From: a virus
Strand: one strand, 5' to 3'
Length of the DNA stretch: 64,000 nt
Virus record (IMG/VR): IMGVR_UViG_3300027736_000020
Span: 1 to 64,000 of that record
The notes beneath the pieces are model-generated. The model was not told where the DNA came from, did not search any database, and saw only the letters and a program-made list of their open reading frames with translations. Both the position numbers and the translations under genes were made by a program. Shown piece after piece: positions 48,728-64,000 of the stretch; position 1 is the stretch's first letter, and each line of letters begins with the position of its first letter.

Positions 48728-48754
48728 GATGTTACTCCAGAAAAAAAATTATTG

Positions 48755-50629
48755 CTATAGTATGCGTGGTATGCGTAATTCCGTACCCCATTCTAGTTTT
48801 TTCGTGAAGCTTTCTGAAATATTGCTTTGCACAGCAATCCATGTTGCAATTTCATTGATTTTTGATTCAGTCATATTCTCTAGATTGGGATATTTATTTT
48901 TTATGATTTCAAGAATTGTTTCCTTTAGGGCTTCACAATAGCCTTTATATGTATATTGCTGCTGTAAAAATCCATTAATATAGACCGCAGGTGACAATTC
49001 ATCCTCATTAAAGGTTAATTGTTCGTCATAATTCCATAATTTATTAAAAATATTTATGGCAAAAAGCAAATCTGTTCCCGATCCGTTAGGCAAATCTGAC
49101 ATGTTAACACTGTTGATCAAATGAACAGCATTTGAAACCTCAAGCACAACTGGGCCATCTGGATCTAATATGGATCTTGATCCAAGGAATCTGGATCGAG
49201 TCATTGGTCCAACGATTGTCTTGTTATGCAAATAGTCTATTTTCCCCCTGATTTGACTGTTTTTATATGATACATCATCAAGAGTAGTAAAAGGAGCTGT
49301 TGAAGCATTGAAATATATCTCAGAGTTTATTGAAGGTGAATACGCATTACTAGTAGTGGCAACCATTTGATTGGTAAAAACAAATCCTGTTATATTAGTA
49401 TTGTCTTCCGTTGCCGTCGAATGATACGTGTCAATAATATATGTTCCCACTAATCCGCTTCCGCTATTGATTTTCAGTACTTTTGTTCCAACAATGATGC
49501 CTTTGCCAACAAGTGTCTGACCTACCGTCAAAGGACCTGAACCCGAATAAACAACGGATATTGTAGCAACATTGCCTTGAACCGATCCTTGGCCAGCAAA
49601 TGTGTCCGTATACGCATAATCAGCATTAGGTATATTTGATGCTACCGCAGCAGTACTGTTTCCCAAAGACAGTTTTTTGTATGAATTTGGATTTGTACTA
49701 ATGGGAAAACCTGATGATATTGAATCGTAATACCTGAATTCCGAAAATTTCTGTGTGCTGTCAGGAGGATACCCAAAACGTTCCTTATATTCACTTATCG
49801 TTGGTTTGCTCGGTGTTCTATACGTAATATATTTTTCCGGAGAATATAAATCTAATTGATCCCCTTTAAACGTCGGCGAAGAAAATCCACCAGATGCAGG
49901 ACGAGTTGCATATCTTCCTGTATTAAATCCAAGCTGTCTTCCGTTTCCATCATCCTTATTCCAGAGTTGTGTAATCAAGTTTCTTCTTTTTTCCCTGTAC
50001 ACATCAAACTTGTGAAGATTTGTGGGACTTTTTGAATCAAGCGCCGCAAAAGAAAGTGAATACGAATGCGTCAATGGGCCCTTTGCAGAACGCTCCATCT
50101 TGAAATTCACAATGGTGACATCCCATTGTCCAAAATGGGGGCTGTCATTGAAATCAATGGAAAGCACCAGTCTTGTGCCTTGCGCATTGCCCACTTTGCA
50201 ACGTTCATAATAGGTGTCAACAAACTCCCTGAGCATGCTGAATTGAACCCATCCTATCGGTCCCTGAAGAGGGCTTGGTCCAATGGTTCCCGACATGGTA
50301 ATGGTTGGAAGTCCCGCTCCCAGATGATCCACATAGGAATCGCCGGAAAGAGTTTGATACACGCCAACTCTTCCCGGAATCTCAATACTCAATTGCGAAG
50401 GAGTCACATAAAATTCATGAAGCATGATACGTTCATTTTTTGAATCAAACATCGTAAGTTCCATGATGTTTGAGGCTTCAACCTTGATCATGTGATACGG
50501 AGCAAGACTTGCGCTTGCACTTCTTACGGTGCTATTAGGACGCAATACTTCCTTGTTCAATTTTCGATTGCCGTTGGGATCATCTTGCCAATAACTTGGC
50601 AAGTTAAACGGATTTGTTTGTTCGACCAT
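48755..50629 (-). CDS. Probable tail-tube initiator / baseplate hub-associated protein
   Basis: FYVTPSQLSIEIPGRVGVYQTLSGDSYVDHLGAGLPTITMSGT N-terminal domain; LysM-like end LEWGTELRIP; TATACT at 50653-50658 upstream. Confidence 0.65.
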   Translation of the reverse strand: MVEQTNPFNLPSYWQDDPNGNRKLNKEVLRPNSTVRSASASLAPYHMIKVEASNIMELTMFDSKNERIMLHEFYVTPSQLSIEIPGRVGVYQTLSGDSYVDHLGAGLPTITMSGTIGPSPLQGPIGWVQFSMLREFVDTYYERCKVGNAQGTRLVLSIDFNDSPHFGQWDVTIVNFKMERSAKGPLTHSYSLSFAALDSKSPTNLHKFDVYREKRRNLITQLWNKDDGNGRQLGFNTGRYATRPASGGFSSPTFKGDQLDLYSPEKYITYRTPSKPTISEYKERFGYPPDSTQKFSEFRYYDSISSGFPISTNPNSYKKLSLGNSTAAVASNIPNADYAYTDTFAGQGSVQGNVATISVVYSGSGPLTVGQTLVGKGIIVGTKVLKINSGSGLVGTYIIDTYHSTATEDNTNITGFVFTNQMVATTSNAYSPSINSEIYFNASTAPFTTLDDVSYKNSQIRGKIDYLHNKTIVGPMTRSRFLGSRSILDPDGPVVLEVSNAVHLINSVNMSDLPNGSGTDLLFAINIFNKLWNYDEQLTFNEDELSPAVYINGFLQQQYTYKGYCEALKETILEIIKNKYPNLENMTESKINEIATWIAVQSNISESFTKKLEWGTELRIPRIL

Positions 50630-50698
50630 GATTTACAAATTCCTTTTCAATAAGTATAACGAAAGATGAAAGAGTAAAAATGTCTTGATCAAAAATTT

Positions 50699-51685
50699 TT
50701 ACACTTTTGGAAATGCCAAAATCACAATTCCCGATCCTCCTGATCCAGAAGTGCCATAATGAACACCGCCACCGCCAGATCCCGTATTGTCTGTTGCGTT
50801 CGCTGCAGTGGCCTGACCAGATGCTCCGCCCCCACCCGCTCCACCCGCTACCGGATTATTGGGATTTGATGTTCCTCCGTATGCACCGTTACCGGCACAG
50901 GAACCTCCGCCGCCTGCTGCTCGCTGAATGGATGTTCCTGTAATGCTTGAAAATGCTCCAGCTCCACCAACACCCGTTCCTCCACCTCCACCAACATTGG
51001 TGTTCCCGCCACCGCCAGCTGTTCCAGCAGCGCCAGCGCCACCGCCACCGCCAGCAGCGCTATCAGTAGCTGATGAGGCCCCCCCATATCCTCCGTTATT
51101 TCCTTGACCAGCAGTTGCAGATCCGGGAACTCCTGATCCATTTCCGCCAGATCCTCCACCGCCAGATCCTCCCGTCTTTCCGTTGACTCCAGCATTGTTT
51201 CCGCCGCCGCCCCCTCCGCCTACAGAAGTAATTGTTGAAAAAGATGAATCATTTCCATTGGTGCCTCCTATAAAAGTGTTTACCACTTGCGCACCGCCTC
51301 CACCAACGACAACCGTGTAGGTTGTCCCCGATGTTATCCCTATAGTTCCCGTGCGATATCCGCCAGCTCCGCCTCCCCCTCCTCGCCAATTTCCGCCCGA
51401 GCCTCCTCCAGCTATAACAAGATACTCAACATTTAGATTTCTGTTTACGGAAATATTTGTCGTTGTCGAAACTGTTCCTGTGGCATTAAATGAATATGTA
51501 TCATAAAGTACTCCATTTCTAGATATTACACCAAGATATGTTCCCGTGGTTGTAAACACGTTTGGATTTGCATCGCTTAATTTTCTGAATTTTTTTACGC
51601 CTGTTCCTTTGTACAAATTAGAAATTGCGCGTTGAGAAATAGCAGATCGAGATATAGATGAGCGTGATGAAGAACTTATGCTCAT
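50699..51685 (-). CDS. Glycine-rich tail-fibre-associated protein
   Basis: VEYLVIAGGGSGG...GGGGAGGY...GSGGSGIVIL; start ATG 51685. Confidence 0.8.
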   Translation of the reverse strand: MSISSSSRSSISRSAISQRAISNLYKGTGVKKFRKLSDANPNVFTTTGTYLGVISRNGVLYDTYSFNATGTVSTTTNISVNRNLNVEYLVIAGGGSGGNWRGGGGGAGGYRTGTIGITSGTTYTVVVGGGGAQVVNTFIGGTNGNDSSFSTITSVGGGGGGGNNAGVNGKTGGSGGGGSGGNGSGVPGSATAGQGNNGGYGGASSATDSAAGGGGGAGAAGTAGGGGNTNVGGGGGTGVGGAGAFSSITGTSIQRAAGGGGSCAGNGAYGGTSNPNNPVAGGAGGGGASGQATAANATDNTGSGGGGVHYGTSGSGGSGIVILAFPKV

Positions 51686-51689
51686 AGTA

Positions 51690-52019
51690 TCACGGCCCCT
51701 GTAATCCATATGCGGTAATATGCACCGTTGCAGCGCTGGCACTTCCCACCAAATACCTATTGGTTGGATCAAGACAAATTCCCAATTGAAGTGCAACCGT
51801 ATCATTTGCTGCCACCGTTGCGGTGTATGCAATGTACGCTCCATGCGTAGCAGTTGAGTTTGTTCCTGTACTTAGTGTATATGTTGCAGATGTTGACGCA
51901 GTATTACATATTGTTATGCAATTTATTACCGTATAGGTACCGGCTGTAGAGCCATTATCTACAATGTTTGTTACTGCAGTGGCGGCCATGGTTCCTAATC
52001 TTTTAATTACTTCGGCCAT
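51690..52019 (-). CDS. Small beta-rich fibre adaptor-like protein, type 'xKRLG'
   Basis: Paralogue of 57633-57974 (KRLG, ICNTA.. SATY, YIAY..TV.ANDTV.L..G..LD.TN.YL). Confidence 0.8.
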   Translation of the reverse strand: MAEVIKRLGTMAATAVTNIVDNGSTAGTYTVINCITICNTASTSATYTLSTGTNSTATHGAYIAYTATVAANDTVALQLGICLDPTNRYLVGSASAATVHITAYGLQGP

Positions 52020-52031
52020 TTTCTTTTTCCT

Positions 52032-54062
52032 TTACGATGTGAACATGAACTGACGGTAATAGGTTGTTCCAGAAGACCAGCCAAGAGTTCCTGAGGTGTC
52101 TGTAGCGGCGAGGACTTGCCCAACGGTTGGGGATGTGGGTAATGTCATCCTGACTCCAGCATTATTTATTCGCATACGTTCGTATCTTGCATTAAATGTT
52201 TGCATAGAAATTGCAGAGACTGCAGCAGATTGCGTGGAGCTAACAGTATATGTTCCCTTTCCTCCAAGCACAGTTGTTGGTGTTTCAGTGCTTGTTAATT
52301 GATCGAGAATAATAAGTCCGGAAGGAAGTCCAGCAGCATTTACAATTTCTTGAAAAGGTGCAATAGTTCCTGATGTTATTGCGGATACCGTGAGAATTGC
52401 GCTATTTGATGGAATGGATCCAGTAAAACTTGCTGCCGTACCAGCACCATTTATATAAAAAACATGATTTGCTGCTCCTCCTGCTATATAATCAAGTTGA
52501 CTGCCAGATATTCCAAAACCGAAGAAATTTGACGCGTATGTTGATCCTCCATCCCAAAGAATTATTTTGTTTGCAAATCCTGCATAAGGAGCATATGACC
52601 ATGCAGTAACGGAAAGTGGGGGGGTTACTAACGATAGAGACACGGTTCCTGTTTGCAAAGGCCCAATGGTTGTTTTCCCAGCAGCAGTGATGCGCATTCG
52701 CTCCAAACCTTGAGACATACTTCCCGGATTTGTGTAAAACGTAAGATCTGAAGGAACACTCCCCGTTGCCACTGTTCCGTTAGAAATTCCGTATATTCCG
52801 GCACCTTCTATAAAATTTGTTCCATCATATCCTTCCCATGTAATATGACCCAAATAATCCCCATTAACAACGGTTAACTTTGTTGCAACGGTTCCGCGAG
52901 ATTTTCTTATACGAAGATTGGGAGCATTTGAATTTGCCCCGTTGGCACGAAGCAAATACAAAGACTCTGTTGATCCCTGAATATCTAACAAAGCTCCCGG
53001 AGCAGTGGTCCCAATGCCGACGTTGCCGGATGGATTTAAAATAGTTATCCTTGCACTTAATGATGGCGATAATTTACATAGACCAGTGTTATTAGTAGTA
53101 GGATACACAGTTGTTCCGTTATATGTAAAAATATGTCCAACTGCATAGACCGATGCTCCTATATCAGACCACCAAGTATTTCCCACAACGGTAATAGTGT
53201 ATTTTGTTCCGCTCACTAGCCCTGTTGTTGGATTAAATGCAGTTGCGCTATTATCTCCTTTATCATTTCCGTATAGTGTAATGCTAGATGGCTGATATGC
53301 CATGCCACCAAGGTAACTGTCGGGAAGTGTGGTACCACGAGGTGTATAAGGAAAGATAAGCGGCGCCCAAGAAAAATCATCTGTAGATCGCCCAATTGCT
53401 CTATATGCTTGACCTCCCGTATCAGAATATGAACCAATTTCTGTAAAAGCAGCTTTCCCGCGAACGTCAAGTGCTGCATCAGGACCAGTGGTTCCAATAC
53501 CGACGTTGCCAGCAGAAGAAAAATAAACCCTTGAAGTTCCTACTGCGACATTAACTGCAGATCCACTGCGAAACTCCAATCCGCCATTAGCTCCTCGAAT
53601 AGTATAATTATTGCCGCTTGCAGTAATTCCTGTAAATTGGGTTGGGCTAGATACTGATAAACTGGAAGGATTAGTTACGGAATATGTTCCATTCCCACCT
53701 GCTGTACCAGTGAGTTGTCCTGTAATAACTACAGTTGAAGAAAAACCGCTCCAATTAATTGTTTGTCCAACAGCAAGTGTACCTCCTGCTGACACACCTC
53801 CAACTGATAGTGTTGTTCCAGATACTGTTCCTATTCCAAACGCTGCCACAGAATCAAAATACAGCGCTGTTGACAGTGTTGATAATTCAAAACTATCTGT
53901 TCGCCGCTTCATTTGCAATCCAGCAAAACCAGTTCCGGCTATTTCTAATGTAGTTGCCGGACTCGTGGTCCCAATGCCGACGTTTCCCAATGAAACAGTC
54001 AAGCCATTGGGAAAATCGGGCGTAGAATTTACTAAACTTCTTGTTGGTGCATATCTTGTCAT
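52032..54062 (-). CDS. Tail fibre protein with GNVGIGTT repeats
   Basis: Three GNVGIGTT motifs; C-terminal VGQVLAATDTSGT; ATGA overlap with the upstream adaptor, start 54062. Confidence 0.85.
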   Translation of the reverse strand: MTRYAPTRSLVNSTPDFPNGLTVSLGNVGIGTTSPATTLEIAGTGFAGLQMKRRTDSFELSTLSTALYFDSVAAFGIGTVSGTTLSVGGVSAGGTLAVGQTINWSGFSSTVVITGQLTGTAGGNGTYSVTNPSSLSVSSPTQFTGITASGNNYTIRGANGGLEFRSGSAVNVAVGTSRVYFSSAGNVGIGTTGPDAALDVRGKAAFTEIGSYSDTGGQAYRAIGRSTDDFSWAPLIFPYTPRGTTLPDSYLGGMAYQPSSITLYGNDKGDNSATAFNPTTGLVSGTKYTITVVGNTWWSDIGASVYAVGHIFTYNGTTVYPTTNNTGLCKLSPSLSARITILNPSGNVGIGTTAPGALLDIQGSTESLYLLRANGANSNAPNLRIRKSRGTVATKLTVVNGDYLGHITWEGYDGTNFIEGAGIYGISNGTVATGSVPSDLTFYTNPGSMSQGLERMRITAAGKTTIGPLQTGTVSLSLVTPPLSVTAWSYAPYAGFANKIILWDGGSTYASNFFGFGISGSQLDYIAGGAANHVFYINGAGTAASFTGSIPSNSAILTVSAITSGTIAPFQEIVNAAGLPSGLIILDQLTSTETPTTVLGGKGTYTVSSTQSAAVSAISMQTFNARYERMRINNAGVRMTLPTSPTVGQVLAATDTSGTLGWSSGTTYYRQFMFTS

Positions 54063-54673
54063 CCGATCACCTCGAAGCCACAAATAGCATGAATGGCATT
54101 TGTTGTTCCGGCCGAAAGATATAAATAATCTGCTTCTTCCAGATAAATACTTGAATCCTTGGACAAAAGCACAAGGGAGGAATTTCCGGGAACAGTGACA
54201 TTCACAGCCAGTGCCCGTTCAACAGCGGGGTTTGTCCATGACAGTGTGGTCAGGGCACCTGCGCTCGCACTCGTTGTGCCCGTGACGGCAATACTGTAAT
54301 TTGTTCCGGAAATGGTAATCGCACCTACGGTAACGCCCGTTCCGGTGCTGATGGGGCTAATTCCTGACCCAGTGATGGTTATGGAGGCAGCAAGGAATGG
54401 TCCAGCAGACATGGGAACAGTCAACGTGTATGCTCCGCTCGTCACTGTTCCTACTGTTCCACTGGTAGCCGTATACGTTTCCGCAGCGCTATACATGTAG
54501 AGCGTGACGGTAGCCGCTGTTGCCGTGACATTCGAGGCGAGAATGGAATTGATCTTGTAGAGTTGGCCGCTCGAAGCAGGATTGGTCACAATCGTGCACG
54601 AGGTCGTAGGCACAAGAATGCTTGTCGTCTTTCCTCGTATTGCGCTTACTCCCATGATGTTTGGATTGGCCAT
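54059..54673 (-). CDS. Small adaptor-like protein, type 'MAxPNI', with an internal insertion
   Basis: Paralogue of 60678-61043 (GKT, KINS, VP.N..LVLLSK.S.IYLEE.D.L) plus an extra ~80-aa S/T/G-rich insert; TATAAT at 54698-54703 upstream. Confidence 0.8.
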   Translation of the reverse strand: MANPNIMGVSAIRGKTTSILVPTTSCTIVTNPASSGQLYKINSILASNVTATAATVTLYMYSAAETYTATSGTVGTVTSGAYTLTVPMSAGPFLAASITITGSGISPISTGTGVTVGAITISGTNYSIAVTGTTSASAGALTTLSWTNPAVERALAVNVTVPGNSSLVLLSKDSSIYLEEADYLYLSAGTTNAIHAICGFEVIG

Positions 54674-54707
54674 TTTTTTTTATTTCCTTGCGTTTTTATT
54701 ATAAAAA

Positions 54708-55559
54708 CTATTTTGCCACGCGTATGATGATTATGCCTTTTCCGCCGCTACCACCAATCGCTCCTGAACTGCCATTATTGTCATTTCTTGTTCCGTATCC
54801 ACCATTTCCGGTATTTGCTGCTCCTGAAGTAGCAGTGGATGCGCCTGTATGCGCACCGCCATTTCCACCAGCACCGTAAACGACACTATTGATCGCCGAA
54901 GTTTTTCCTGTCCCTCCAGTACCAGCAACCTGATTGCCAGCCGCTCCTCCGGCAGCACCTGCGCCGCCGCCGCCGCCGCCAGCATAGGATGAGGCACTTG
55001 CCGTATATGCAGCGCCACCAGAATTACCCTGTCCTGTTGTGCCTACACCGGCAGCTAACCATGACGGAACACCTTCATTCCCCAAGCTTCCTCCTCCTCC
55101 GCTTCCCACTACTCCATTTCCAGTTCCTGCGTCGAAAACGCTACTGTATGTATAATCTCTCCAAAAACTTGCGCCTTTTCCCCCTCCGTACGCAGTGACT
55201 GAAGCGAATGATGACGCTGTTCCACTTGAGCCATTTGGGTATGCTCCAGCTCCTCCACCACCCACTACGACGTTATACACAGTATTTGCGGAACAAGATA
55301 TGACTTGTTCAAGTACACCACCGCCTCCGCCTCCGCCTCCCATTCTTCCTCCGCCAGCACCTCCCCCGCCAACAATCAGTGCCGTTACCGATGTTGTCTT
55401 TGGAAATTTTATTGTTCCAGTGTCAAGAAAAGTATAGTAATAATATGTTGCGTCGCTAGTCTTCGTTCCTATTGTAAATGATAGTGCTGGACCATATTCT
55501 GCAACATATGCGGCAATAGTGACATCTCTATCTGAGACCTGATTGTATAAATAACTCAT
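54708..55559 (-). CDS. Glycine-rich tail-fibre-associated protein
   Basis: ALIVGGGGAGG...GGGGGGGVL...GSGGKGIIIIRV; start ATG 55559 with GGGAG RBS. Confidence 0.8.
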   Translation of the reverse strand: MSYLYNQVSDRDVTIAAYVAEYGPALSFTIGTKTSDATYYYYTFLDTGTIKFPKTTSVTALIVGGGGAGGGRMGGGGGGGGVLEQVISCSANTVYNVVVGGGGAGAYPNGSSGTASSFASVTAYGGGKGASFWRDYTYSSVFDAGTGNGVVGSGGGGSLGNEGVPSWLAAGVGTTGQGNSGGAAYTASASSYAGGGGGGAGAAGGAAGNQVAGTGGTGKTSAINSVVYGAGGNGGAHTGASTATSGAANTGNGGYGTRNDNNGSSGAIGGSGGKGIIIIRVAK

Positions 55560-55569
55560 GTCATTCTCC

Positions 55570-57633
55570 CTAAATAATGAACCATGTGTTTGTGCCATCG
55601 GAAACAAATGTATATGAATCATATTGCGCCGGAATTGAAAATGCTGCTCCTGCACTGCCTAATTCAATGAACTGTCCAGCTGCTGGAGTAATGTTTACAG
55701 TGCCGGGCGTCAGTCTTTTTATGATGTACACCCTGTTTGCCGCAGTGGCTGCATTAGGCAGTGTATAAACAACATTCCCTGTTGCCGCACTAGTAATAAT
55801 ATATTGCGTGGCATCAAGCGTTGTTCCACTAGCAAGCAAAGGAGAAACTTTTACTGATTGTGATCCTGATACATGAAATGTAGATTTTGGATCACTCGTC
55901 CCAATGCCGACGTTGCCAGCGGTAGTAATTCGCACTCGTTCCGCCCCGTTGGTGTATATTTCCACACCTCCAACGTTGTATGTTCCTCCTGAACCTCTTG
56001 CAACAAACATGCCTGAAGTGGCGGTTGTCGGACCACCTCGCAGAATAAGTGATCCATCGGCAGTATTTACTGGCCGGTCAATGTATACATCGGCTGTGGC
56101 ACCGTTAACGGAAAGAGATGCGGTAGGACTCGTGGTCCCAATGCCGACGTTGCCAGCATTGGTAATTGCCAAGCGGACTAAGCCATTTGGGCCTCCGCCA
56201 TACGTAGTGTCGGTTTTCCAATCTTCGCGGAAAATTCTGAACAAACCGGAGGCGTTATCTATATTCCATATGACTGGAGTACCAGTCATTGTTGCTGCAG
56301 TGGAAACGGTGGCGAGACTTGTGTCAAGATTGACCGTATATGGGCCAGATCCTGACACACTTGTCACAACGGCTCCCGTAGTAACTCCCGCGACAGACAG
56401 CACTTGTCCCGCAGCCCAAGCCCCGGTTACTGTTCCGGAAGTGGTCATGACTGTTCCAAGTATCGTACCTTGAGACGAAGCAGTGTTCGTAGTCTCGGAT
56501 TCAAGGGTCAGCCGTCCGTTTGTTGGTGCACCAGCGAATCCTTGAGGAGATGTGGCTTGCGGTGCGCGAAGGCGAAGATGCCCGTTGATGCTGACAGGAA
56601 CAGAAAATCGCGCAAGCATGGAATATGTTGAATACTGATAAGCTCCGGTAGTGTACACCTCATTGTATGTAGGAAAACTGAGATCAAAAAATCTTTCGGT
56701 AATATTTGTTCCGCCAGAAACTGTTGCATTTCCCCCGGTATCTGTTCGTTCAGGATATCCCCAAATGCTGTATTGTCTTGCACCCGTAATTTTTGTGTCG
56801 CTTAATGTGTCTACATACGTAGCCCAGTGTATGCCGCCCAAATCCGAAAAAGAATATGTGGAAGTTCCCGCCGTGCTTGTTGTAGTGGAAAAAATGACTA
56901 CATCCGTGGCGTTTGTTATTGATTGAATAATGCAAGAAGTGCCAACGGCTCCTGCAGTTGTCCCTGTGGCAACGCTTGTCACTTTCATTCCAATGTGTAG
57001 TGCGGAAGTTGATGCAACCGCCAGTGTTGCAGTCCTAGCCGAACCAGTGCCACCCACAGCAGAAATTGTTCCACCAATACTGGGCACATCGGTATTTTTT
57101 GCAAAAAGCTGAACTGCAACCCAAGGAGCTGTCGTTCTTGTGGCTTGAATATTTATTTGCGACGTATTCATGAAGGCATAAATTCGATTATTTACCAATA
57201 AGTATTCTTTTGATTGATCAATTGCTCCTGCTGCATTTCCATATCCAATAGTCAAATTTGGATTTGGCGTATTCGTATACGTAAATAATTGAAAATTGTC
57301 AGAAGCAGTTGATGTTAATTGCAGTCCATTAATTGTTCCGGTTCCATTAGAAAATGTACCCGTCACAGAAGTATTATTATTTAAAGTGATTCCACCGGGC
57401 GCACCAACCCACAAACTTTTTCCGGCAGTGCTTGTATAAAGTCGTATTTGATTATTCGTCGGATAGTCATCAATGGTGTATCCAATGGTGCCAATTGAAA
57501 GGGATGAAAGGGACTGCGTGGACGAAACACTCAACGTCGTGACGCCATTCGTTGTCGATGAGGTCAGCCCGGTTCCTCCCAGAACTTGGGCCGCAACATT
57601 CAATCCAGAAACCGTTAGCGTCTTGATAGTCAT
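55570..57633 (-). CDS. Tail fibre protein with GNVGIGT repeats
   Basis: Two GNVGIGT motifs; C-terminal YTLPNAATAANRVYIIKR...VSDGTNTWFII; start overlaps the upstream stop. Confidence 0.85.
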   Translation of the reverse strand: MTIKTLTVSGLNVAAQVLGGTGLTSSTTNGVTTLSVSSTQSLSSLSIGTIGYTIDDYPTNNQIRLYTSTAGKSLWVGAPGGITLNNNTSVTGTFSNGTGTINGLQLTSTASDNFQLFTYTNTPNPNLTIGYGNAAGAIDQSKEYLLVNNRIYAFMNTSQINIQATRTTAPWVAVQLFAKNTDVPSIGGTISAVGGTGSARTATLAVASTSALHIGMKVTSVATGTTAGAVGTSCIIQSITNATDVVIFSTTTSTAGTSTYSFSDLGGIHWATYVDTLSDTKITGARQYSIWGYPERTDTGGNATVSGGTNITERFFDLSFPTYNEVYTTGAYQYSTYSMLARFSVPVSINGHLRLRAPQATSPQGFAGAPTNGRLTLESETTNTASSQGTILGTVMTTSGTVTGAWAAGQVLSVAGVTTGAVVTSVSGSGPYTVNLDTSLATVSTAATMTGTPVIWNIDNASGLFRIFREDWKTDTTYGGGPNGLVRLAITNAGNVGIGTTSPTASLSVNGATADVYIDRPVNTADGSLILRGGPTTATSGMFVARGSGGTYNVGGVEIYTNGAERVRITTAGNVGIGTSDPKSTFHVSGSQSVKVSPLLASGTTLDATQYIITSAATGNVVYTLPNAATAANRVYIIKRLTPGTVNITPAAGQFIELGSAGAAFSIPAQYDSYTFVSDGTNTWFII

Positions 57634-57974
57634 TAGCTTATTTCCACGCCAGAAACACTGAATGCCACCGTAACAGCACTCGCAGATACAAGCAAGTATT
57701 TATTGGTCAAATCAAGAGTGGTTCCGACAGTAAGAAAGACCGTGTCATTCGCATTGACGGTTCCTCCGTACGCAATGTATCCCGTATATCCCGAGGCTGG
57801 AAACGTATTTGCGGTAGAAATACACACCCTATACGTCGCACTGGCCCCGGCAGTATTGCAAATGACTATCGTGCTGGCAATGGCCGCAGTGACAGTGCAG
57901 GTATAGAGAACGTCTGCGGTTCCAATGGTTCCACTTGATGTTATTGCGCCCAATCTTTTATATGTTTGCGCCAT
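57633..57974 (-). CDS. Small beta-rich fibre adaptor-like protein, type 'xKRLG'
   Basis: Paralogue of 51690-52019; TGTATAAT (57991-57998) and GGAG upstream. Confidence 0.8.
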   Translation of the reverse strand: MAQTYKRLGAITSSGTIGTADVLYTCTVTAAIASTIVICNTAGASATYRVCISTANTFPASGYTGYIAYGGTVNANDTVFLTVGTTLDLTNKYLLVSASAVTVAFSVSGVEIS

Positions 57975-58028
57975 TATGATGCTCCAATCAATTATACATT
58001 TTTATGAGCTTTTTAATTCGGCATTTTT

Positions 58029-59882
58029 TCATCGAACATATATTTCAAAACGGGCGGATCGGTTGATTCCGGTCGTGTCCTGACAGCAAGCGATGTAATC
58101 GCCTGCGCTTCGAGTACCGTTAGCCATCCCGATGCCTCCAAACACGTCATTCGTTCCGACGTAGATTTGATTAGTGCTTGGCCAAAGACCCTCGCCGTTT
58201 TCGTTCCATCCAAAGCCCCATCGAACAGATCCGGTAACCGAAGGATATAGCGTGTAATTGACTTGAGAATAATTAAATCCATAAAACCTGATATCCGTCT
58301 GACTGGAGAATGAACCATTCGACCACCCAGTAAAGGTCTTGGCGTCTCGCTTGAACAAGCCGCTGCCCCCGTACTGGACCGGATACGACAGGTTGAAGAA
58401 GTTGGTCAGCGATTGACGACTAGTGCCGTTAAAGTCGTTTTCCAACCATGTCCACTGAGTATTGTTGGAGATGCTGCCTCCTGTCCACGTGATCTGGCTG
58501 GTGGTGGTCTTGTAGCAGTAGAAGTCGGCAACGAAGTTGTAGTTCTGACCAGATGCGGCCCATCCGGCGTTGTCAATTCGAAACCTCCCGTGAGTCGTGC
58601 TGGCCGTCGTCGTGAGGGCAATCGTGTTGGCTACACCATCGACCAGAGTTGTCGTCGTCACGATGGTGCCGGACTGAAGTTGCTCGAAGTACATGGCGTG
58701 AGCACTGCCCTTGTTGGTTGTTCCCTTGTTGACGCCAACCGATATGGCCGTATTGGCGGGAACGGAAAATGTCGAGGAGTATGAGCGGTGCGTACTGTTG
58801 TTGGAGATCCACGGCTTGACACCGTTGTCCGTGTTGGCTGTCGGGGAACTGTTGATCGTATACTGGACATTGATGGTGACCGCAGGCGTGACCCGCGCCG
58901 AAATCTCCAAGGGAATCATGGTGACCTGCGTCCCATTGGTGAATGTCGCCGCGGTCGCGCCGCTGAGGTCATCAATGACCACTTCACGGATGTTGGTATC
59001 GGCCTTGACGATCCTGAACGCGTAGTACCGTTCGGCCATGACATTGGCGGGAGTCATGTCGGGCCACAATCCAAGGATATCTTTTGCACCGAAGTAGTTA
59101 AAAGTCTGGTATTTTGCATTTCCAGCATTTGTGGTGGTATCACTGGGATTAAGGGTATTGAAGGTGGTCCAATAGGAAGAAGAATAGGAAAAAGTGGTAT
59201 CACTCAAGGATTTCCCGCCCTTCATTGCTAGCATCCATCCGCCACCGTCGTACGCGGAGTCCATCAGGCAGTAAACCTGCGTTGGACCGACAGTCGGGAG
59301 ATTGATCCAATACACACCGTTAGTATTGGTTCCCGTTAACGTTTTGATGGACATTGCACTGTCTCCGGCAAGGGCAGACGTAGATCCATTACCTGAAGCA
59401 TTTACAGGAGTAATTGTCGATACATTTGCCAATAATATTCCGGAAGAATTTGCAAGTCGTATTTCAATATAAAATGAATCAGTTTCTATTCCATCAGAGC
59501 TTACCAACGTTTTTGTAAATTCTCCCGAAGATGTTGTTCCCCATTCAGAATATGTGGTAAATGTTCCAGTCATTAATCCATCAGTAAAATCTTCTGCTAA
59601 TACTGATCCTGTTAATGGAACAATTGTATAATGTAATGTTAATCCAGCCGTCGCTTTGGATAAATTGATCTTTACGGTAAAAGTCGTTCCTTCGGTGGGA
59701 GTAACTGACGGAGTGACAGATGTCCAATTCGTGCGAATTTGCTGAGGCCACGTCGCCTGCCTGACATGATTGTATGCCTGAAAAGAATCATATATTCCCG
59801 AGATTGACACAGGAGCAAACCCTGTCGCAGATGTTTGCGAGGGAAGATTCTGTGGTCCAATGATTCCGCCGTTTTTTATCAT
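58029..59882 (-). CDS. Receptor-binding-like protein with Calx-beta-like and fibrinogen-C-like domains
   Basis: NGVYWINLPTVGPTQVYCLMDSAYDGGGWML, SYWTT, VRWGFGWNEN; internal GC-richer insert. Confidence 0.7.
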   Translation of the reverse strand: MIKNGGIIGPQNLPSQTSATGFAPVSISGIYDSFQAYNHVRQATWPQQIRTNWTSVTPSVTPTEGTTFTVKINLSKATAGLTLHYTIVPLTGSVLAEDFTDGLMTGTFTTYSEWGTTSSGEFTKTLVSSDGIETDSFYIEIRLANSSGILLANVSTITPVNASGNGSTSALAGDSAMSIKTLTGTNTNGVYWINLPTVGPTQVYCLMDSAYDGGGWMLAMKGGKSLSDTTFSYSSSYWTTFNTLNPSDTTTNAGNAKYQTFNYFGAKDILGLWPDMTPANVMAERYYAFRIVKADTNIREVVIDDLSGATAATFTNGTQVTMIPLEISARVTPAVTINVQYTINSSPTANTDNGVKPWISNNSTHRSYSSTFSVPANTAISVGVNKGTTNKGSAHAMYFEQLQSGTIVTTTTLVDGVANTIALTTTASTTHGRFRIDNAGWAASGQNYNFVADFYCYKTTTSQITWTGGSISNNTQWTWLENDFNGTSRQSLTNFFNLSYPVQYGGSGLFKRDAKTFTGWSNGSFSSQTDIRFYGFNYSQVNYTLYPSVTGSVRWGFGWNENGEGLWPSTNQIYVGTNDVFGGIGMANGTRSAGDYIACCQDTTGINRSARFEIYVR

Positions 59883-59892
59883 TTATTTTCTC

Positions 59893-60675
59893 TTATACCG
59901 GGTAATCTGTTGTGTACAGCGACGGGTATCTATTTTTAAAAACATAATAATTCTGCATTATTTCGGCGTAAGACAACACTCTGTTATATGCTAATACAAA
60001 TGATATATAACAACTTGAGAATTCGGATGTAGCATTAAAAGTTCCAAGATAAAATGCATTTGGCCCTTGCGACCCGTAAGAGTTAGGGCCAAAACTCAAA
60101 GCAAGTCCATCGTATAAAGCCCAACTGTCAGAAGTATAATTTCCAGTGCAAGTAAATATTCTCCAGTTTGTATCGTTGTTTTGATAGGTAATATTTGTGC
60201 CTAATCCTGCACTTAGATCGTTAATCCATCCTTCAGAATAATACCTTTCATATCCTCCGCCATGATATCCCAATAAAAAATTATTATATCTTCCACTCAC
60301 CACGCGCCCCTGAATGGCCGTGTTAAAAATTTTTGTTCCTGCCATAATTGTATGATTTGTCGTGGAAAGATTTGGCCCCGCAGTTCGAATATATTGTCCA
60401 ACTGTACTTGATGTAGCAGTACATATCATTACCCCTCCATCTGTGGTTCCGCTCCAAGTAACCCCATTGACAAGAGTGCCATTATTTCCAGATCCGCTAA
60501 GATCAGTCCATGTTGTGCCAGTGCCTGAATAACTTGCAGTATTTCCCGCATCAAGATGCAACACAAGACCCGAAGAAACAACGCCGAAATTTGCTTTGCC
60601 GACAACGTCAATAGTGTTTGATCTTTTTTGCTGACTTGATCCTATGTATCCTGCGTTATTTGAAAAAAACGACAT
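59893..60675 (-). CDS. LamG / concanavalin A-like lectin domain protein
   Basis: GLVLHLDAGNTASYSGTGTTWTDLSGSGNNGTL...YNRVLSYAEIMQNY; start ATG 60675. Confidence 0.85.
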   Translation of the reverse strand: MSFFSNNAGYIGSSQQKRSNTIDVVGKANFGVVSSGLVLHLDAGNTASYSGTGTTWTDLSGSGNNGTLVNGVTWSGTTDGGVMICTATSSTVGQYIRTAGPNLSTTNHTIMAGTKIFNTAIQGRVVSGRYNNFLLGYHGGGYERYYSEGWINDLSAGLGTNITYQNNDTNWRIFTCTGNYTSDSWALYDGLALSFGPNSYGSQGPNAFYLGTFNATSEFSSCYISFVLAYNRVLSYAEIMQNYYVFKNRYPSLYTTDYPV

Positions 60676-60677
60676 TT

Positions 60678-61043
60678 TTATACACCAATCTCTTCGTATG
60701 AGCAAATTGCTTCCAATTTGCTTACGGTGCTTGCGGTAAGTCTCAAGCTATCATTTTCTTCTAGATATATTGCGCTTTCTTTTGACAACAAAACTAGCGT
60801 TGCGTTGGCAGGAACAGAAATCAAATACGCAATACGATACGCCGTGGTTGCGGCTTTGTAAACATCAGCAGTAATATTATACGCTGTTGTACCGTCAACA
60901 TTTGCAATAATTAATGAATTTATTTTCAATACTTTTCCTGAAGATGACCCGTTGGCTACAATCGCGGTTGCAGTAACTGGAACAGCAAGTCCTGCGGTTT
61001 TTCCGTACATGGTTGCTATTGATACGATATTTGGTGCGGCCAT
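60678..61043 (-). CDS. Small adaptor-like protein, type 'MAxPNI'
   Basis: MAAPNIVSIATMYGKT...VPANATLVLLSKESAIYLEENDSL. Confidence 0.8.
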   Translation of the reverse strand: MAAPNIVSIATMYGKTAGLAVPVTATAIVANGSSSGKVLKINSLIIANVDGTTAYNITADVYKAATTAYRIAYLISVPANATLVLLSKESAIYLEENDSLRLTASTVSKLEAICSYEEIGV

Positions 61044-61054
61044 TTTTTAATCCT

Positions 61055-64000
61055 TTATCTGAATAATATTGAAAATGCAATTGCGCGATTAGCACCTGCC
61101 GCAGTCGTCCAAGCAACCGTCCCCGATGTGTCGGTAGCGGCGAGTACTTGTCCGACTACAGGGGCGGAAGGAAGATTGACCTGCAACGTTCCCGCAGTGC
61201 CAATACGCAAATTTCCATTATCTGTACGCAATGTTGTGGTTCCAATCCCACCATCTCCAGTTCTTGCTGAACTATTGGTAAAGATAACAAATTTTGTTTC
61301 AAGAACGTCATTTCCCATCCTGAATATTGTATAAGAAGTATTTTCTGCGCTTGTATTTCGCAAATAGAAAGCAGCTTCAGTCGTATTGGATTTAACGACA
61401 GAAAGATCACCGGAAGGACTGGTGGTTCCAATACCGACGTTTCCAGCAGAAGTAATTCGCATACGTTCGAGAAATGTGCTTCCGCTCCAAAGCGTATGCA
61501 CCAAATCCGCTGCCCCATTCGTGTTCGTCATTATTGCTTTGATTTGAGCGTTACCCAAATCGCCCGAATACGTAGAACTTTCTAAGGCAAAATTTAATGA
61601 CGCATCATTTCCAATTGTCGCCGTCGCGCCATTGACAATGCTTATTTCTCCGCCTCTTCCTCCCGCAGTATCTTTCCTTACTGAAAGCAAAGATTCTGGA
61701 CTAGTGGTCCCAAGACCCACAAAACCTTCGCGAGAAAAATATATTTTTGATGACCCTCCGCCTGCATTTACCGCAGAATTGTTAAGAAAATCCAAACCTC
61801 CATAAGATGCTCGAATGCTATAATTATTTACGTAGCTAATTGCGGTAGCATTAACTGCGGTGCTTATTGTTTGATTTGTGCTATTTGTTACGGTATATGT
61901 TCCAACACCGCCCGTTCCTCCCGTAGTTGGAATAAGTGCCGTGATAGTCACTACCGAGGTTATGTCGGGTCCGCTAACTACTTGGCCGACTGCCCATGTG
62001 CTGGCAGGCCCAGTTGTCGAAACAACAGTTAGTGTCGTTCCCGAAAGGGTGATTGTTCCATAAGCGGCTACCGAATCAAAATACAGCGCTGTTGACAATT
62101 GAGGATTGTCTGTTCTGCGCTTCATTTGCAATCCGGCGAAACCAGTTCCGGCTATTTCCAAAGTGGTTGCGGGAGTCGTGGTCCCAATGCCGACGTTGCC
62201 ACCAGATTTGAATGTCACCAAGTCGGCAGTGTTAATGCGTATTCGTATATCGTCGGTACTTGCCGTTTCAACACGCAGAACGTTATCTGTTCCTAATCCA
62301 ATGTATGCTTTTGCCACGTCCGCAGCCGAAAATTGCATTAATCGGTTTGTTCCGGCCGCTGCGTTTATTGTCAACAGTTGCCCCGGACTTGTGGTCCCAA
62401 TGCCGACGTTGCCTCCTGTAAAAAGCGCGGAATACGTGGAATTAGAAAACGTCTGTGTCGCTGTCCATGTATTTGCGGTGGAAAGCGAAGCCCCTCCTCC
62501 TCCGCCACTGCCTACTAAAGTCTCTGCTCCAGTCCCTGATTTGTAATACAAGGATCCAGACTTGCTATATAGCGTGAATTTTCCAGTTCCCGGAGCATTT
62601 GGCGCGACAGAAAGATCTGTCAATGTCAACTGGTTGATATTGGAAATCTGTCCGGTAGTACTATCCGGTGCAGGAACTCCAAGGCTAAGACCATCGCTGG
62701 TGATGGAAAAAGAACTTCCGGCCGCAGAAAGACTTCCTCCTGTGATGATCGGCAAATCCGTCCCAAAGATCGTGGCAAACGCCAATGAGGAAGAGCTTCC
62801 TCCCCCGCCTCCACTTCCGCTGCTGAATACCGACTCCGCCCCAGTATCCGTACGCTTGTAGAGGAATCCGTCGTCCTTGAAATACATCTTGATGTACCCA
62901 GTAGAAGGATTGGTAAGAGCCAGTGCTTCCGCTGTCGTATTCAGTTTGTAGGAAATGGACGTGAAAATCTGGTTTGCTGTCCATGTATTTTGTGTTGCCA
63001 ACATCAGGGTGCTTCCTGCACCCCAGCTCAAGTTTCCTGAACCATCAGTGGTTAAAGTCTGCCCATTGCTTCCCGCAGTAGGGGGAAATATATATGTCGT
63101 TGCAGAGGCAGTTGCAGAACCTTGGAAAATTGTGGCTACGGAGTTGCTCAGGAGACCAATGCTCGTCAATCCCGCTATGGTTGCGGAAGTGGCACCCAGA
63201 GCCACCGATGTCGATCCGTATTGCACTGTAGAGCTGACAAGCTTGGCATTCGCTATGGAACCAGCAAGCATGGTGTTTGTTACTGTTGCGCTATCGCCAG
63301 TTCCAATCAATGTTCCCGCAAGAAGAGGCAGTGAAAATGCTCGTGCTGCTGTTTGACTTGCATTTGCCACCAAGGTTGAGGTGTAGGCATTTCCGATCAA
63401 TGACAAAGTAGAACTGCTCAGAACATTTGCCGCGCCAATTTTATATGTTTTTCCGGCCGCAAGATCAAAATTCTCACTCGATGTCCACGAAGCACCTGTA
63501 CTAACCCAATTAAGTGTCTTGTCTGATGCTCCTTTTACGGTTATTCCTGCGCCATCAGCGGTGGTGTCAGTAGGAGACGCAATGCTTGCCAATTCAATAT
63601 TTTTGTCATCTACAGACAAGGTTGTGGAATTTATGGTTGTGGTTGTGCCATTTACCGTCAAGTCTCCGGTTACCGTAAGCGAACTGTTTACGGTAACTAA
63701 TCCACCAGCTGCACTTCCAATATTGACATTTGTCGTTGATGAGGCCGCTCCCCCAGTGCCAATGTTTACGGTCTTTATCGTTGAAGCAGCAACGGCTCCC
63801 GTTGATATGTTTGTCGTACTTGCGGCAGTTCCAGTGTATCCAACGGTCAATGTTGTTGCGCTTGCAAATGCGCCAAAGGTTGCGCCTGAATCCATCGTAG
63901 TCGCGAACGTCGGTGAGGTGGAAAACACCAACGTTCCGCTTCCCGTTTCGTCCGTGACAGCAGAAAGCAAATTTGCACTACTTGGTGTACCAAGGAATGT
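61055..64000 (-). CDS. Long tail fibre protein, 5' end beyond the window
   Basis: Frame is open to base 64000 (TFLGTPSSANLLSAVTDETG); VDDKNIEL, three GNVGIGTT motifs, ends RAIAFSILFR. Confidence 0.88.
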   Translation of the reverse strand, partial: TFLGTPSSANLLSAVTDETGSGTLVFSTSPTFATTMDSGATFGAFASATTLTVGYTGTAASTTNISTGAVAASTIKTVNIGTGGAASSTTNVNIGSAAGGLVTVNSSLTVTGDLTVNGTTTTINSTTLSVDDKNIELASIASPTDTTADGAGITVKGASDKTLNWVSTGASWTSSENFDLAAGKTYKIGAANVLSSSTLSLIGNAYTSTLVANASQTAARAFSLPLLAGTLIGTGDSATVTNTMLAGSIANAKLVSSTVQYGSTSVALGATSATIAGLTSIGLLSNSVATIFQGSATASATTYIFPPTAGSNGQTLTTDGSGNLSWGAGSTLMLATQNTWTANQIFTSISYKLNTTAEALALTNPSTGYIKMYFKDDGFLYKRTDTGAESVFSSGSGGGGGSSSSLAFATIFGTDLPIITGGSLSAAGSSFSITSDGLSLGVPAPDSTTGQISNINQLTLTDLSVAPNAPGTGKFTLYSKSGSLYYKSGTGAETLVGSGGGGGASLSTANTWTATQTFSNSTYSALFTGGNVGIGTTSPGQLLTINAAAGTNRLMQFSAADVAKAYIGLGTDNVLRVETASTDDIRIRINTADLVTFKSGGNVGIGTTTPATTLEIAGTGFAGLQMKRRTDNPQLSTALYFDSVAAYGTITLSGTTLTVVSTTGPASTWAVGQVVSGPDITSVVTITALIPTTGGTGGVGTYTVTNSTNQTISTAVNATAISYVNNYSIRASYGGLDFLNNSAVNAGGGSSKIYFSREGFVGLGTTSPESLLSVRKDTAGGRGGEISIVNGATATIGNDASLNFALESSTYSGDLGNAQIKAIMTNTNGAADLVHTLWSGSTFLERMRITSAGNVGIGTTSPSGDLSVVKSNTTEAAFYLRNTSAENTSYTIFRMGNDVLETKFVIFTNSSARTGDGGIGTTTLRTDNGNLRIGTAGTLQVNLPSAPVVGQVLAATDTSGTVAWTTAAGANRAIAFSILFR

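What the first reader, a model, noticed from the sequence alone, without database searches (positions are those of the whole stretch)
53005..62413. A 23-bp DNA word conserved at synonymous sites across three fibre genes: candidate module-shuffling crossover site
Seen: minus-strand GGCAACGTCGGCATTGGGACCAC (GNVGIGTT) is perfect at 53005-53027, 56132-56154, 62178-62200 and 62391-62413, 22/23 at 53965, 21/23 at 53488 and 55895, and 20/23 at 61422. All eight copies use AAC-GTC-GG(C/T)-ATT-GG(G/A)-AC, although surrounding codons look A/T-ending-biased (AAT, GTT, GGA) and most flanks diverge within a few bases. All copies are direct repeats at domain boundaries. Protein-level selection cannot fix third positions. 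Inference: these are homogenised recombination joints through which inter-repeat fibre modules are swapped, deleted or duplicated, a combinatorial receptor-binding diversification system needing neither an invertase nor a reverse transcriptase.
Basis: partly seen in the sequence, partly recalled or inferred. Interest (0 to 1): 0.8.

Follow-up and report, generated by a model that had tools for sequence, protein, structure and literature searches.

The report
Recombination joints in phage fibre genes
Three tail-fibre genes of an uncultured 184-kb phage are built from modules separated by one short Gly-Asn-Val-Gly-Ile-Gly motif whose DNA spelling is kept almost identical, and related phages have swapped modules at these spots, a new example of the known way phages reshuffle their host-recognition fibres.

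Summary
There are eight in-frame copies of a 23-nt word (GNVGIGT) in three minus-strand fibre genes. Flanks diverge at once. The word uses minor codons (AAC 32%, GTC 20%, GGC 18%, GGG 10%). Mean pairwise codon identity is 0.78 against 0.36-0.38 expected, reached in 0 of 200,000 simulations. Equally conserved neighbouring T, P and L codons are not homogenised (0.19-0.24).

In eight relatives with fibre homology (nine screened), 22 of 49 homology-block ends inside the fibre genes lie within 25 nt of a motif site, against 7.9% expected. One distant phage shares a single 987-nt block that begins and ends inside two word copies. Others carry this window's modules in other orders, and adjacent blocks overlap on a word. 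One fibre gene combines modules from all three window genes.

Not supported: a dedicated or high-frequency system. The same phage in two other samples has the identical arrangement where their contigs overlap (42,032-57,006). No reverse transcriptase, invertase or recombinase domain was found with the eight Pfam families searched. The read test was unavailable.

Within-genome spelling uniformity is general (46 of 58 unrelated viral loci).

The mechanism matches conserved-motif recombination in T-even fibre and adhesin genes. This scan noted the same thing earlier on other DNA (e1-5711522).

The parts
53005..53027 (-). Word copy (perfect), third GNVGIGT of fibre gene F1; right end of the A+B cassette and left end of module C
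   Evidence: Homology blocks of L129, L226, L225 and L222 end or start 0-9 nt from it.
53488..53510 (-). Word copy (GGT..GGA variant), internal to the A+B cassette of F1
   Evidence: The same variant sits at the orthologous place in L129 and L225. A 70%-identical block of L230 (4267-4769) ends 6 nt from it at 53482, but that block was filtered out of the tally as redundant. A protein-level block of P0011 ends just after it.
53965..53987 (-). Word copy (1 mismatch), first GNVGIGT of F1, directly after the 26-residue N-terminal anchor
   Evidence: Seven relatives have a block end 0-14 nt from it. The paralogous F1/F3 module starts here.
55895..55917 (-). Word copy (2 mismatches, GNVGIGTS), second motif of F2, in front of the C-terminal domain
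   Evidence: The L232 cassette (word + F2 C-terminus + following gene, 94%) starts 5 nt before it, and the L226 block ends 9 nt after it. The AlphaFold model puts it on strands just before the well-predicted C-terminal domain.
56132..56154 (-). Word copy (perfect), first motif of F2
   Evidence: Block ends of L226 (0 nt), L233 (18 nt), L230 and L231 (24 nt).
61422..61444 (-). Word copy (3 mismatches), last motif of F3, in front of its C-terminal module
   Evidence: Blocks of L230 and L231 (92-93%) start 4 and 13 nt before it.
61704..61726 (-). Variant motif GFVGLGTT with other codons (not a copy of the word)
   Evidence: The L230 block 62413-61698 ends 6 nt past it.
62178..62200 (-). Word copy (perfect), second motif of F3; start of the module paralogous to F1 module A
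   Evidence: 80-83% blocks of L129, L225 and L226 start at 62200/62201.
62391..62413 (-). Word copy (perfect), first motif of F3
   Evidence: The L222 block ends inside it and the L230 block starts at its first base.
52032..54062 (-). Fibre gene F1 (676 aa from the ATG; the ORF is open from TTG at 54083): N-anchor, modules A, B and C, conserved C-terminal tail
   Evidence: PHROG tail-fibre families. A 676-aa product is on record. Mosaic homologues.
55570..57633 (-). Fibre gene F2 (687 aa)
   Evidence: Mosaic homologues. Fold resembles phage tailspikes and Bdellovibrio MAT fibres.
61055..64000 (-). Fibre gene F3 (1404 aa; continues to 65269 beyond the window)
52087..52132 (-). Conserved C-terminal tail of F1 (VGQVLAATDTSGT region), a second kind of recurrent joint; its F3 counterpart is at 61119-61156
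   Evidence: F1 and F3 tails are 82% alike over 38 nt. Blocks of L222, L230 and L231 start at 52132, and blocks of L222, L230 and L231 end at 61119 (L232 at 61109). In L230 the two blocks overlap on this tail.
54708..55655 (-). Gly_rich_2 (PF21722) gene after F2; in L232 it travels with the F2 C-terminal module. Its paralogue after F1 is at 50699-51844

Best explanation
The window holds the tail-fibre region of an uncultured 184-kb contractile-tailed phage. Three fibre genes are chains of unrelated stalk and tip modules. Each module begins with the strand motif (R-I-T-x-x)-G-N-V-G-I-G-T-T-x-P. The roughly 20-nt stretch that encodes the motif is the only DNA the modules share.

I propose that this short identical stretch serves as the crossover point for ordinary homologous recombination. 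The recombinase could be the host's RecA or an unrecognised phage enzyme. The partners would be fibre genes of co-infecting phages or prophages, and in principle also the paralogous genes of one genome. A crossover in the word is automatically in frame and falls on a structural module boundary, so the chimera folds.

Modules that keep the majority spelling can be moved and can spread. Modules whose word drifts drop out of the exchange pool. This, possibly together with short-tract gene conversion, would keep the spelling uniform within a genome and within an exchange community, even at synonymous sites and against the genome's codon preference.

Shown here: the spelling excess, the module mosaicism, and the clustering of breakpoints on the words. 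Inferred: that the exchange is homology-driven, that it causes the uniform spelling, and which enzymes act. It is an evolutionary-scale process, not a programmed switch.
For: 1. The spelling is not explained by codon usage. In 0 of 200,000 simulations did identity reach the observed value. The codons used are minor ones. Neighbouring conserved T, P and L codons are not uniform.

2. There is no recent duplication. Flank identity is at background level.

3. L129 is a distant phage: its syntenic tail proteins are 22-52% identical in amino acids, and there is no other block above 150 nt in 21 kb. It shares one 987-nt block at 86% that runs from the first base of word 53965-53987 to the last base of word 53005-53027. 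Identity drops to random within a few nt outside.

4. L226 carries that cassette followed directly by F2's inter-word module (56154-55886, 88%). The two blocks overlap by exactly one word.

5. In L230, one fibre gene joins window modules from F3, F2, F3 and F1 at 82-98% identity. L231 is similar. L232 has a 95-97% identical backbone and carries [word + F2 C-terminus + next gene] at the F1 locus.

6. 22 of 49 block ends inside the three genes lie within 25 nt of a motif site, against 7.9% expected (binomial p about 3e-12). They hit 7 of 9 sites. Protein-level block ends also fall at motif positions 33, 192 and 353 in F1 and 494 and 573 in F2.

7. The pattern is general. Unrelated viral contigs also show homology ending at GNVGIG. 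In 58 independent loci, motif codon identity is 0.67 against 0.48 for same-residue flank codons; 46 of 58 loci go in that direction, p = 3.7e-6.

8. Relatives share the spelling: 23 of 26 words, against 30 of 310 in a random viral sample.

9. Orthologous words are no better conserved than the rest of the cassette: 48 of 62 codons against about 0.83. This fits turnover or homogenisation better than purifying selection on a fixed sequence, but the evidence is weak.

10. The mechanism has precedent in T-even gp37/gp38 (PMC3157838).
Against: - No recombination event was observed directly. The read test could not be run.
- The same phage in two other samples has an identical arrangement over the part their contigs cover, 42,032-57,006.
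- Block ends are not independent events, because the relatives share ancestry. BLAST also extends a block through a conserved word, which sharpens ends by up to about 10 nt.
- Structural selection alone would also place surviving breakpoints at module boundaries.
- Some joints lack a word on the partner side (L222 and L233 after the N-anchor; L232 at 62447). Some carry a differently spelt G(R/K)VGIG (L230, L231, L233). Other recurrent joints exist (52132/61119, 57157, 57515).
- No RecA, RecT, ERF, Rad52, Sak4-type or YqaJ domain was found in the genome.
- A 23-nt identity is at or below the usual minimum for efficient RecA-dependent exchange (my own knowledge).
Confidence: 0.72

Rival explanations
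1. Structure-only explanation. Recombination happens anywhere, by illegitimate or micro-homology events. Only chimeras joined at the module boundary fold into a working trimer, so surviving breakpoints pile up at the motif. The DNA identity of the word is then a by-product of something else.
For: The motif sits on strands directly before a well-predicted domain. Some joints have no word on the partner side or a differently spelt one. Other recurrent joints exist.
Against: This does not explain why third positions are uniform while the adjacent conserved T, P and L codons are not. It does not explain why minor codons are used, or why 10 of 49 ends fall within 5 nt of the word with adjacent blocks overlapping exactly on it. 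The second joint type (the C-terminal tail) is also a stretch of shared DNA.
Confidence: 0.13
2. Translational explanation. The particular codons are selected for decoding speed or accuracy at a structurally critical turn, for example a rare-codon pause that helps co-translational folding or trimer registration. Every copy therefore converges on the same spelling.
For: The word is made mostly of minor codons. AAC and GGC are over-used at these positions in many AT-rich phages. Within-genome uniformity is widespread.
Against: GTC, GTG and GTA are about equally rare in this genome, yet 8 of 8 copies use GTC. The three Gly codons of the motif differ from one another. Equally conserved neighbouring residues show no preferred codon. 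Different phages of similar G+C content use different spellings. Orthologous words drift as fast as the rest of the cassette.
Confidence: 0.08
3. A programmed, high-frequency intragenomic shuffling system. Direct repeats in one genome recombine often, so a phage population carries many fibre combinations at once.
For: There are eight direct repeats in three co-oriented genes. A DprA (RecA-loader) domain is encoded in the genome. Close relatives differ in which cassette sits at which fibre locus (L232).
Against: Contigs from two other samples are 99.97-100% identical over 42,032-57,006, with the same arrangement there; they end inside F2 and do not reach F3. Recombination between direct repeats in different genes would delete the genes in between. 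No dedicated recombinase, invertase or reverse transcriptase was found. No reads were available.
Confidence: 0.05
4. An RNA or DNA signal (a structure, protein-binding site or overlapping gene) constrains the word. Alternatively, the mosaics are assembly chimeras formed at the repeat.
For: One copy (53965) lies in a strong hairpin, z = -4.2.
Against: The other seven contexts fold no better than shuffles, and the predicted structures differ. Plus-strand ORFs overlap only some copies. A 23-33-nt repeat is shorter than the final k-mers of the assemblers named in the contig labels (k141; this point is my own knowledge). The mosaic proteins recur on several independent contigs and samples.
Confidence: 0.02

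Closest known systems
Conserved-motif recombination in the distal tail-fibre locus of T-even phages (gp37 and the glycine-rich motifs of gp38; Tetart et al. 1996, 1998; Trojet et al. 2011, PMC3157838)
   Same: Short, highly conserved, glycine-rich motifs separate variable segments of the receptor-binding proteins. Natural and laboratory chimeras have their exchange points in or near those motifs. A C-terminal module travels together with the next gene, here a Gly_rich_2 gene, as gp37 does with gp38.
   Different: There is no sequence relationship: no gp37 or gp38 family hit in F1-F3. Here the units are whole stalk or tip modules of 80-370 residues, not loops inside one small adhesin domain. 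The same motif is used across three genes and in many unrelated uncultured phages. Synonymous-site uniformity was measured here. No crosses were done.
Mosaic adhesive trimer (MAT) fibres of Bdellovibrio bacteriovorus and S74-type phage tail fibres (Caulton et al. 2024, PMC10769870)
   Same: The fold search of the F2 C-terminal part hits Bd1334, Bd3182, Bd2439 and Bd2133 fibres and phage tailspikes. Relatives of F1 end in a Peptidase_S74 domain (PF13884). The architecture is mosaic, with a conserved presentation end and variable tips.
   Different: The window's three proteins have no S74 domain. That paper describes protein mosaicism, not DNA-level joints; my term search of it found recombination mentioned only in the methods. 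TM-scores are low (0.15-0.38) because a monomer model of an intertwined trimer was compared.
Linker-sequence model of modular phage evolution (Susskind and Botstein; boundary sequences in lambdoid phages). From my own knowledge, not checked here
   Same: Short conserved DNA between exchangeable modules acts as the homology for recombination.
   Different: There the linkers lie between genes. Here they lie inside coding sequence and double as a structural motif.
Diversity-generating retroelements and invertase-driven fibre switches (Cin, Gin, Min, shufflons)
   Same: All diversify phage receptor-binding proteins.
   Different: No reverse transcriptase or serine recombinase is present. The repeats are direct, not inverted. 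There is no adenine-specific variation pattern. This is not a member of either class.

Membership tests
Conserved-motif recombination joints in phage receptor-binding genes (T-even gp37/gp38 type) | Short conserved motifs separate otherwise unrelated or hypervariable segments of fibre or adhesin genes | tested here: met
   Eight words plus one variant in three fibre genes. Flanks are at background identity.
Conserved-motif recombination joints in phage receptor-binding genes (T-even gp37/gp38 type) | Exchange points between natural relatives fall in or next to the motifs | tested here: met
   22 of 49 block ends lie within 25 nt of a motif, against 7.9% expected. Word-to-word cassettes occur in L129, L225 and L226. 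Adjacent blocks overlap on one word.
Conserved-motif recombination joints in phage receptor-binding genes (T-even gp37/gp38 type) | Recombinants recovered in crosses map to the motifs | not testable with these tools
   The phage is uncultured. The read-level test was unavailable.
Conserved-motif recombination joints in phage receptor-binding genes (T-even gp37/gp38 type) | Sequence homology to gp37 or gp38 | tested here: not met
   There is no Pfam hit in F1-F3, and the PHROG hits are generic tail-fibre families. The case works like the T-even one without being homologous to it.
Diversity-generating retroelement | Reverse transcriptase with a template/variable repeat pair | tested here: not met
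   No RVT_1 match in the 184-kb genome. The repeats are 23 nt long and identical rather than A-variable.
Invertase-driven fibre switch or shufflon | Serine (or tyrosine) recombinase plus inverted crossover sites | tested here: not met
   No Resolvase match. All copies are direct repeats on one strand. Tyrosine recombinases were not searched.
Recent tandem or segmental duplication | Identity extends through the repeated modules | tested here: not met
   Identity is confined to 20-52 nt, except for one 79%/68% paralogous module. Third-position identity in the flanks is 0.30-0.34.
MAT / S74-type trimeric fibre stalk | Fold similarity to solved fibre stalks and tips | tested here: inconclusive
   Foldseek E-values are 1e-7 to 7e-4 against tailspikes and Bd1334, but TM-scores are only 0.15-0.38 for a monomer model with mean pLDDT 77. 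There is no S74 domain in the window proteins, though one is present in relatives.

The most novel reading that the evidence does not exclude
The spelling of the GNVGIG word may be a community 'dialect'. Across many unrelated phage lineages the roughly 20-nt joint evolves in concert within a genome and within a set of phages that exchange fibre modules. It drifts between sets. The spelling would then mark, and perhaps delimit, who can trade receptor-binding modules with whom. That would make host-range exchange networks readable from metagenomes. It could mean the joint is maintained by second-order selection for exchangeability, or by a dedicated, still unrecognised nuclease or annealing activity.
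Probability: 0.3. Interest if true: 0.7.

Novelty: new member of a known kind. Interest (0 to 1): 0.5.

Why it matters
Tail fibres decide which bacteria a phage can infect. This case shows a very common fibre motif doubling as an in-frame DNA joint. It also shows modules passing at 82-98% nucleotide identity between phages whose core tail proteins are only 22-52% identical.

That gives a concrete rule for reading fibre mosaics in metagenomes: cut at GNVGIG. It also gives natural splice points for building chimeric fibres in laboratory phages.

The principle itself is not new. Recombination at conserved motifs has been known from T-even phages since the 1990s. What is added is the measured synonymous-site uniformity, its generality across 58 unrelated viral loci, and the breakpoint statistics.

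Tried and rejected
- **Read-level test.** I did not pursue it another way.
- **Phage records.** A blastn search of GenBank phage records with 52000-57700 found no match.
- **F2 in IMG/VR.** A related-loci search with F2 found no relative.
- **F3 in IMG/VR.** The same search with F3 found 329 loci, but they match only its N-terminal, word-free domain.
- **Metagenome scan.** A scan with F1 returned only the contig already known as L129.
- **Solved structures.** A sequence search of the PDB with F1 gave nothing at E up to 1.
- **Literature.** Full-text searches for GNVGIG, NVGIGT and VGIGTT found no relevant paper.
- **Recombinases.** The families RecA, RecT, ERF, AAA_24 (Sak4-type), YqaJ and Rad52_Rad22 had no match in the genome, and neither did RVT_1 or Resolvase. 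PHROG scans of nine proteins in that region gave only an HNH/DUF559-type endonuclease.
- **RNA structure.** No shared structure was found.
- **Right-hand cassette boundary.** No shared sequence marks the right-hand boundary of the L232 cassette (54560-54800 against 50580-50800).
- **Prokaryote genomes.** The exact 20-mer occurs in 17 contigs from many phyla, but only the word matches there. This gives neither a host clue nor evidence of cross-phylum conservation.
- **First all-against-all breakpoint test.** It was uninformative, because most loci lacked related partners.
Full report
**What is there**

The window is the first 64 kb of a 184,088-bp IMG/VR virus record, estimated 97% complete. 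From about 13.8 kb onward, minus-strand genes encode portal, terminase, primase, baseplate and tail proteins.

Three minus-strand ORFs match PHROG tail-fibre families and have no Pfam family:
- F1: 52032-54083; a 676-aa product starting at the ATG at 54062 is on record.
- F2: 55570-57633.
- F3: 61055-65269; it runs beyond the window.

An AlphaFold model of F2 residues 480-687 has mean pLDDT 77, and about 90 for the last 130 residues. Foldseek matches it to phage tailspikes and to Bdellovibrio MAT fibres with E-values from 1e-7 to 7e-4. TM-scores are low, as expected for one chain of an intertwined trimer.

**Check of the observation**

The 23-nt word occurs eight times at up to three mismatches. 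All copies are on the minus strand, at the stated coordinates and with the stated mismatch counts. Shuffled sequence gives none. Every copy reads GNVGIGT in frame. The whole genome has no other copy. One further motif, GFVGLGTT at 61704-61726, is spelt differently.

Genome and fibre-gene codon usage are AAC 0.32, GTC 0.20, GGC 0.18, GGG 0.10-0.13, ATT 0.50-0.56 and ACC 0.19-0.20. The word is therefore built mainly from minor codons.

Drawing codons from either usage table gives a mean pairwise codon identity of 0.36-0.38 and never more than 0.73 in 200,000 trials. The observed value is 0.78.

The sharpest control is internal. Codon identity among copies is 1.0 for N, V and I, 0.57 for each G, and 0.75 for T. 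For the next, equally conserved T, P and L it is 0.19, 0.21 and 0.24.

DNA similarity among the genes is limited to 20-52 nt around the word. The exception is one paralogous module that begins at the word in both genes: F1 nt 97-283 against F3 nt 3070-3247 at 79%, then 68% further on. Recent duplication is therefore excluded, and codon usage does not explain the spelling.

**Relatives: the natural experiment**

A peptide-pattern scan with F1 found one viral contig, L129. Its tail and baseplate proteins are syntenic with this phage but only 22-52% identical. At the DNA level it shares a single 987-nt block at 86%, plus one 144-nt block at 81% that starts at word 62178 and a few 29-38-nt matches to word copies. 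The large block runs from the first base of word 53965-53987 to the last base of word 53005-53027. Outside both words the ungapped identity is random.

A search of 5.8 billion proteins gave many partial, high-identity homologues of F1 and F2. Their alignment ends sit at the motif positions: residues 33, 192 and 353 in F1, and 494 and 573 in F2.

I fetched the DNA for seven of these and compared it with the genome:
- **L226** has the same word-to-word cassette (53988-53004, 85%) followed directly by F2's inter-word module (56154-55886, 88%). The two blocks overlap by exactly one word.
- **L225** has the cassette in yet another context.
- **L230** belongs to the distant L129-like group. Its single fibre gene strings together F3 62413-61698 (82.5%), the F2 central module 57157-56108 (91%), the F3 C-terminal module 61448-61119 (93%), and the F1 tail plus the two following genes 52132-50657 (98.2%).
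- **L231** is a similar patchwork.
- **L232** is a 182.6-kb contig with a 95-97% identical backbone. At the F1 locus it carries [F1 N-anchor + word] ... [word 55895 + F2 C-terminal module + the Gly_rich_2 gene that follows F2 here].
- **L222 and L233** are further relatives with block ends at the words.

I screened these seven loci together with L129 and L134, nine in all. L134 contributed only two block ends, both far from any word, so the breakpoints near words come from the other eight. In total, 49 ends of homology blocks fall inside the three fibre genes. Ten lie within 5 nt, 19 within 15 nt and 22 within 25 nt of one of the nine motif sites. The expected share at 25 nt is 7.9%, giving a binomial p of about 3e-12. 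Seven of the nine sites are hit.

Two caveats apply. The ends are not independent events. BLAST also runs a block through a conserved word, which can sharpen an end by about 10 nt.

Assembly chimeras are unlikely. The repeat is far shorter than the final k-mer of the assemblers (this point is my own knowledge), and the mosaic proteins recur on several contigs and samples.

**Other joints and exceptions**

A second recurrent joint is the conserved C-terminal tail, at 52087-52132 in F1 and 61119-61156 in F3. It is also a stretch of shared DNA.

Some joints have no word on the partner side: after the N-anchor in L222 and L233, and in L232 at 62447. Three relatives spell one joint as G(R/K)VGIG with different codons.

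**Generality**

Third-position identity among motif copies averages 0.67 within a locus. It is 0.35 between loci and 0.3-0.45 in the flanks.

In 58 independent loci, after removing recently duplicated pairs, motif codon identity is 0.67 against 0.48 for same-residue flanking codons. It is higher in 46 of 58 loci (Wilcoxon p = 3.7e-6).

Spellings differ between lineages, whereas this phage's relatives share its spelling: 23 of 26 words, against 30 of 310 in the random sample.

In that random sample, homology between different contigs also stops at the motif in several independent pairs: L033/L125, L122/L126, L132/L133, L132/L137 and L131/L132.

**Mechanism and rivals**

The best reading is homologous recombination at a short in-frame identity that coincides with a module boundary. 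Uniform spelling would then be kept up because only modules with the common spelling stay exchangeable, possibly helped by short conversion tracts.

A small test fits this. Orthologous words in the shared cassette are no better conserved than the cassette's other synonymous codons (48 of 62 against about 0.83). The spelling does not look like a fixed sequence under purifying selection, yet paralogous copies stay alike. That is the pattern of concerted evolution. The sample is small.

The rivals fare as follows:
- **Structure-only selection** explains the breakpoint positions but not the third positions.
- **Translational selection** does not explain why GTC is used 8 of 8 times when GTG and GTA are equally rare. 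It also does not explain why neighbouring conserved codons are free to vary.
- **RNA structure** is not shared among the copies.
- **A programmed, frequent intragenomic system** is not supported. Contigs of the same phage from two other samples are 99.97-100% identical over 42,032-57,006 with the same arrangement there. No reverse transcriptase, serine invertase, RecA, RecT, ERF, Rad52, Sak4-type or YqaJ domain was found.

A DprA domain, a RecA-loading mediator by established knowledge, sits in a 2222-aa protein outside the window.

**Comparison with what is known**

[quoted passage not shown] 1996 and 1998. This locus works like that but is not homologous to gp37 or gp38.

The fibre type resembles the MAT and S74 fibre family (PMC10769870).

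No paper in the held library mentions the GNVGIG motif in this context.

This scan had already reported the same phenomenon on another genome (e1-5711522). The present case is therefore a further, well-documented member of a known kind.

Noticed in passing
window 50657-52132 (F1 C-terminal tail, the 109-aa gene 51690-52019 and the Gly_rich_2 gene 50699-51844): A 1476-nt block is 98.2% identical to L230 6272-7747. L230 is a phage whose neighbouring genes show no nucleotide similarity to this one, so this looks like a very recent transfer. Its left end is the conserved C-terminal tail shared by F1 and F3.
   Followed up: partly
window 54708-55655 and 50699-51844: Each of F2 and F1 is followed (directly after F2; one small gene later after F1) by a paralogous Gly_rich_2 (PF21722) gene, 39% identical in amino acids. 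In L232 the F2 C-terminal module and its Gly_rich_2 gene moved together to the other fibre locus, reminiscent of gp37 with gp38.
   Followed up: partly
window 53925-54027 (minus strand): Only the copy at 53965 lies in a strong predicted hairpin (-35.9 kcal/mol, z = -4.2), formed by TTTTCCCAATGG...CATTGGGAAA. The other seven contexts do not fold better than shuffles.
   Followed up: no
G000:C1:107471-114139 (outside the window), DprA match at 111041-111571: A 2222-aa protein contains a DprA (DNA_processg_A) domain, E = 7.5e-22. No RecA-type or single-strand-annealing recombinase was found in the genome with the families tried.
   Followed up: partly
window 1067-4213 (+): A full DNA polymerase III alpha subunit (PHP, NTPase, finger, HhH and OB domains) lies in the first 4 kb. 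G+C there is 55-56%, against 37-49% in the fibre and tail region.
   Followed up: no
L252 and L253 (= window 42032-57006 and 42079-56686): Contigs of the same phage from two other samples are 100% and 99.97% identical. Both end inside the central module of F2, which may mark population heterogeneity upstream of that point.
   Followed up: no
L234-L250 (prokaryote MAG contigs): The exact 20-mer AACGTCGGCATTGGGACCAC occurs once each in 17 contigs. They come from Pyrinomonadaceae, Bdellovibrionaceae, several CPR groups, Omnitrophota, Elusimicrobia and one Thermoplasmata bin. In the 15 contigs where the match passed the BLAST threshold, only the word matches the window.
   Followed up: yes
L230 about 5990-6010, L231 about 2560-2580, L233 about 4470-4490: At the joint after the F2 central module, three relatives carry G(R/K)VGIGTT spelt GGA ARA GTG GGA ATA GGA, unlike the window's word. 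Homology to the downstream window module starts in the last third of the word.
   Followed up: partly
G000:C1:99140-99688 (outside the window): A 182-aa protein matches HNH/homing-endonuclease PHROG families (E = 2e-14). No link to the words was tested.
   Followed up: no
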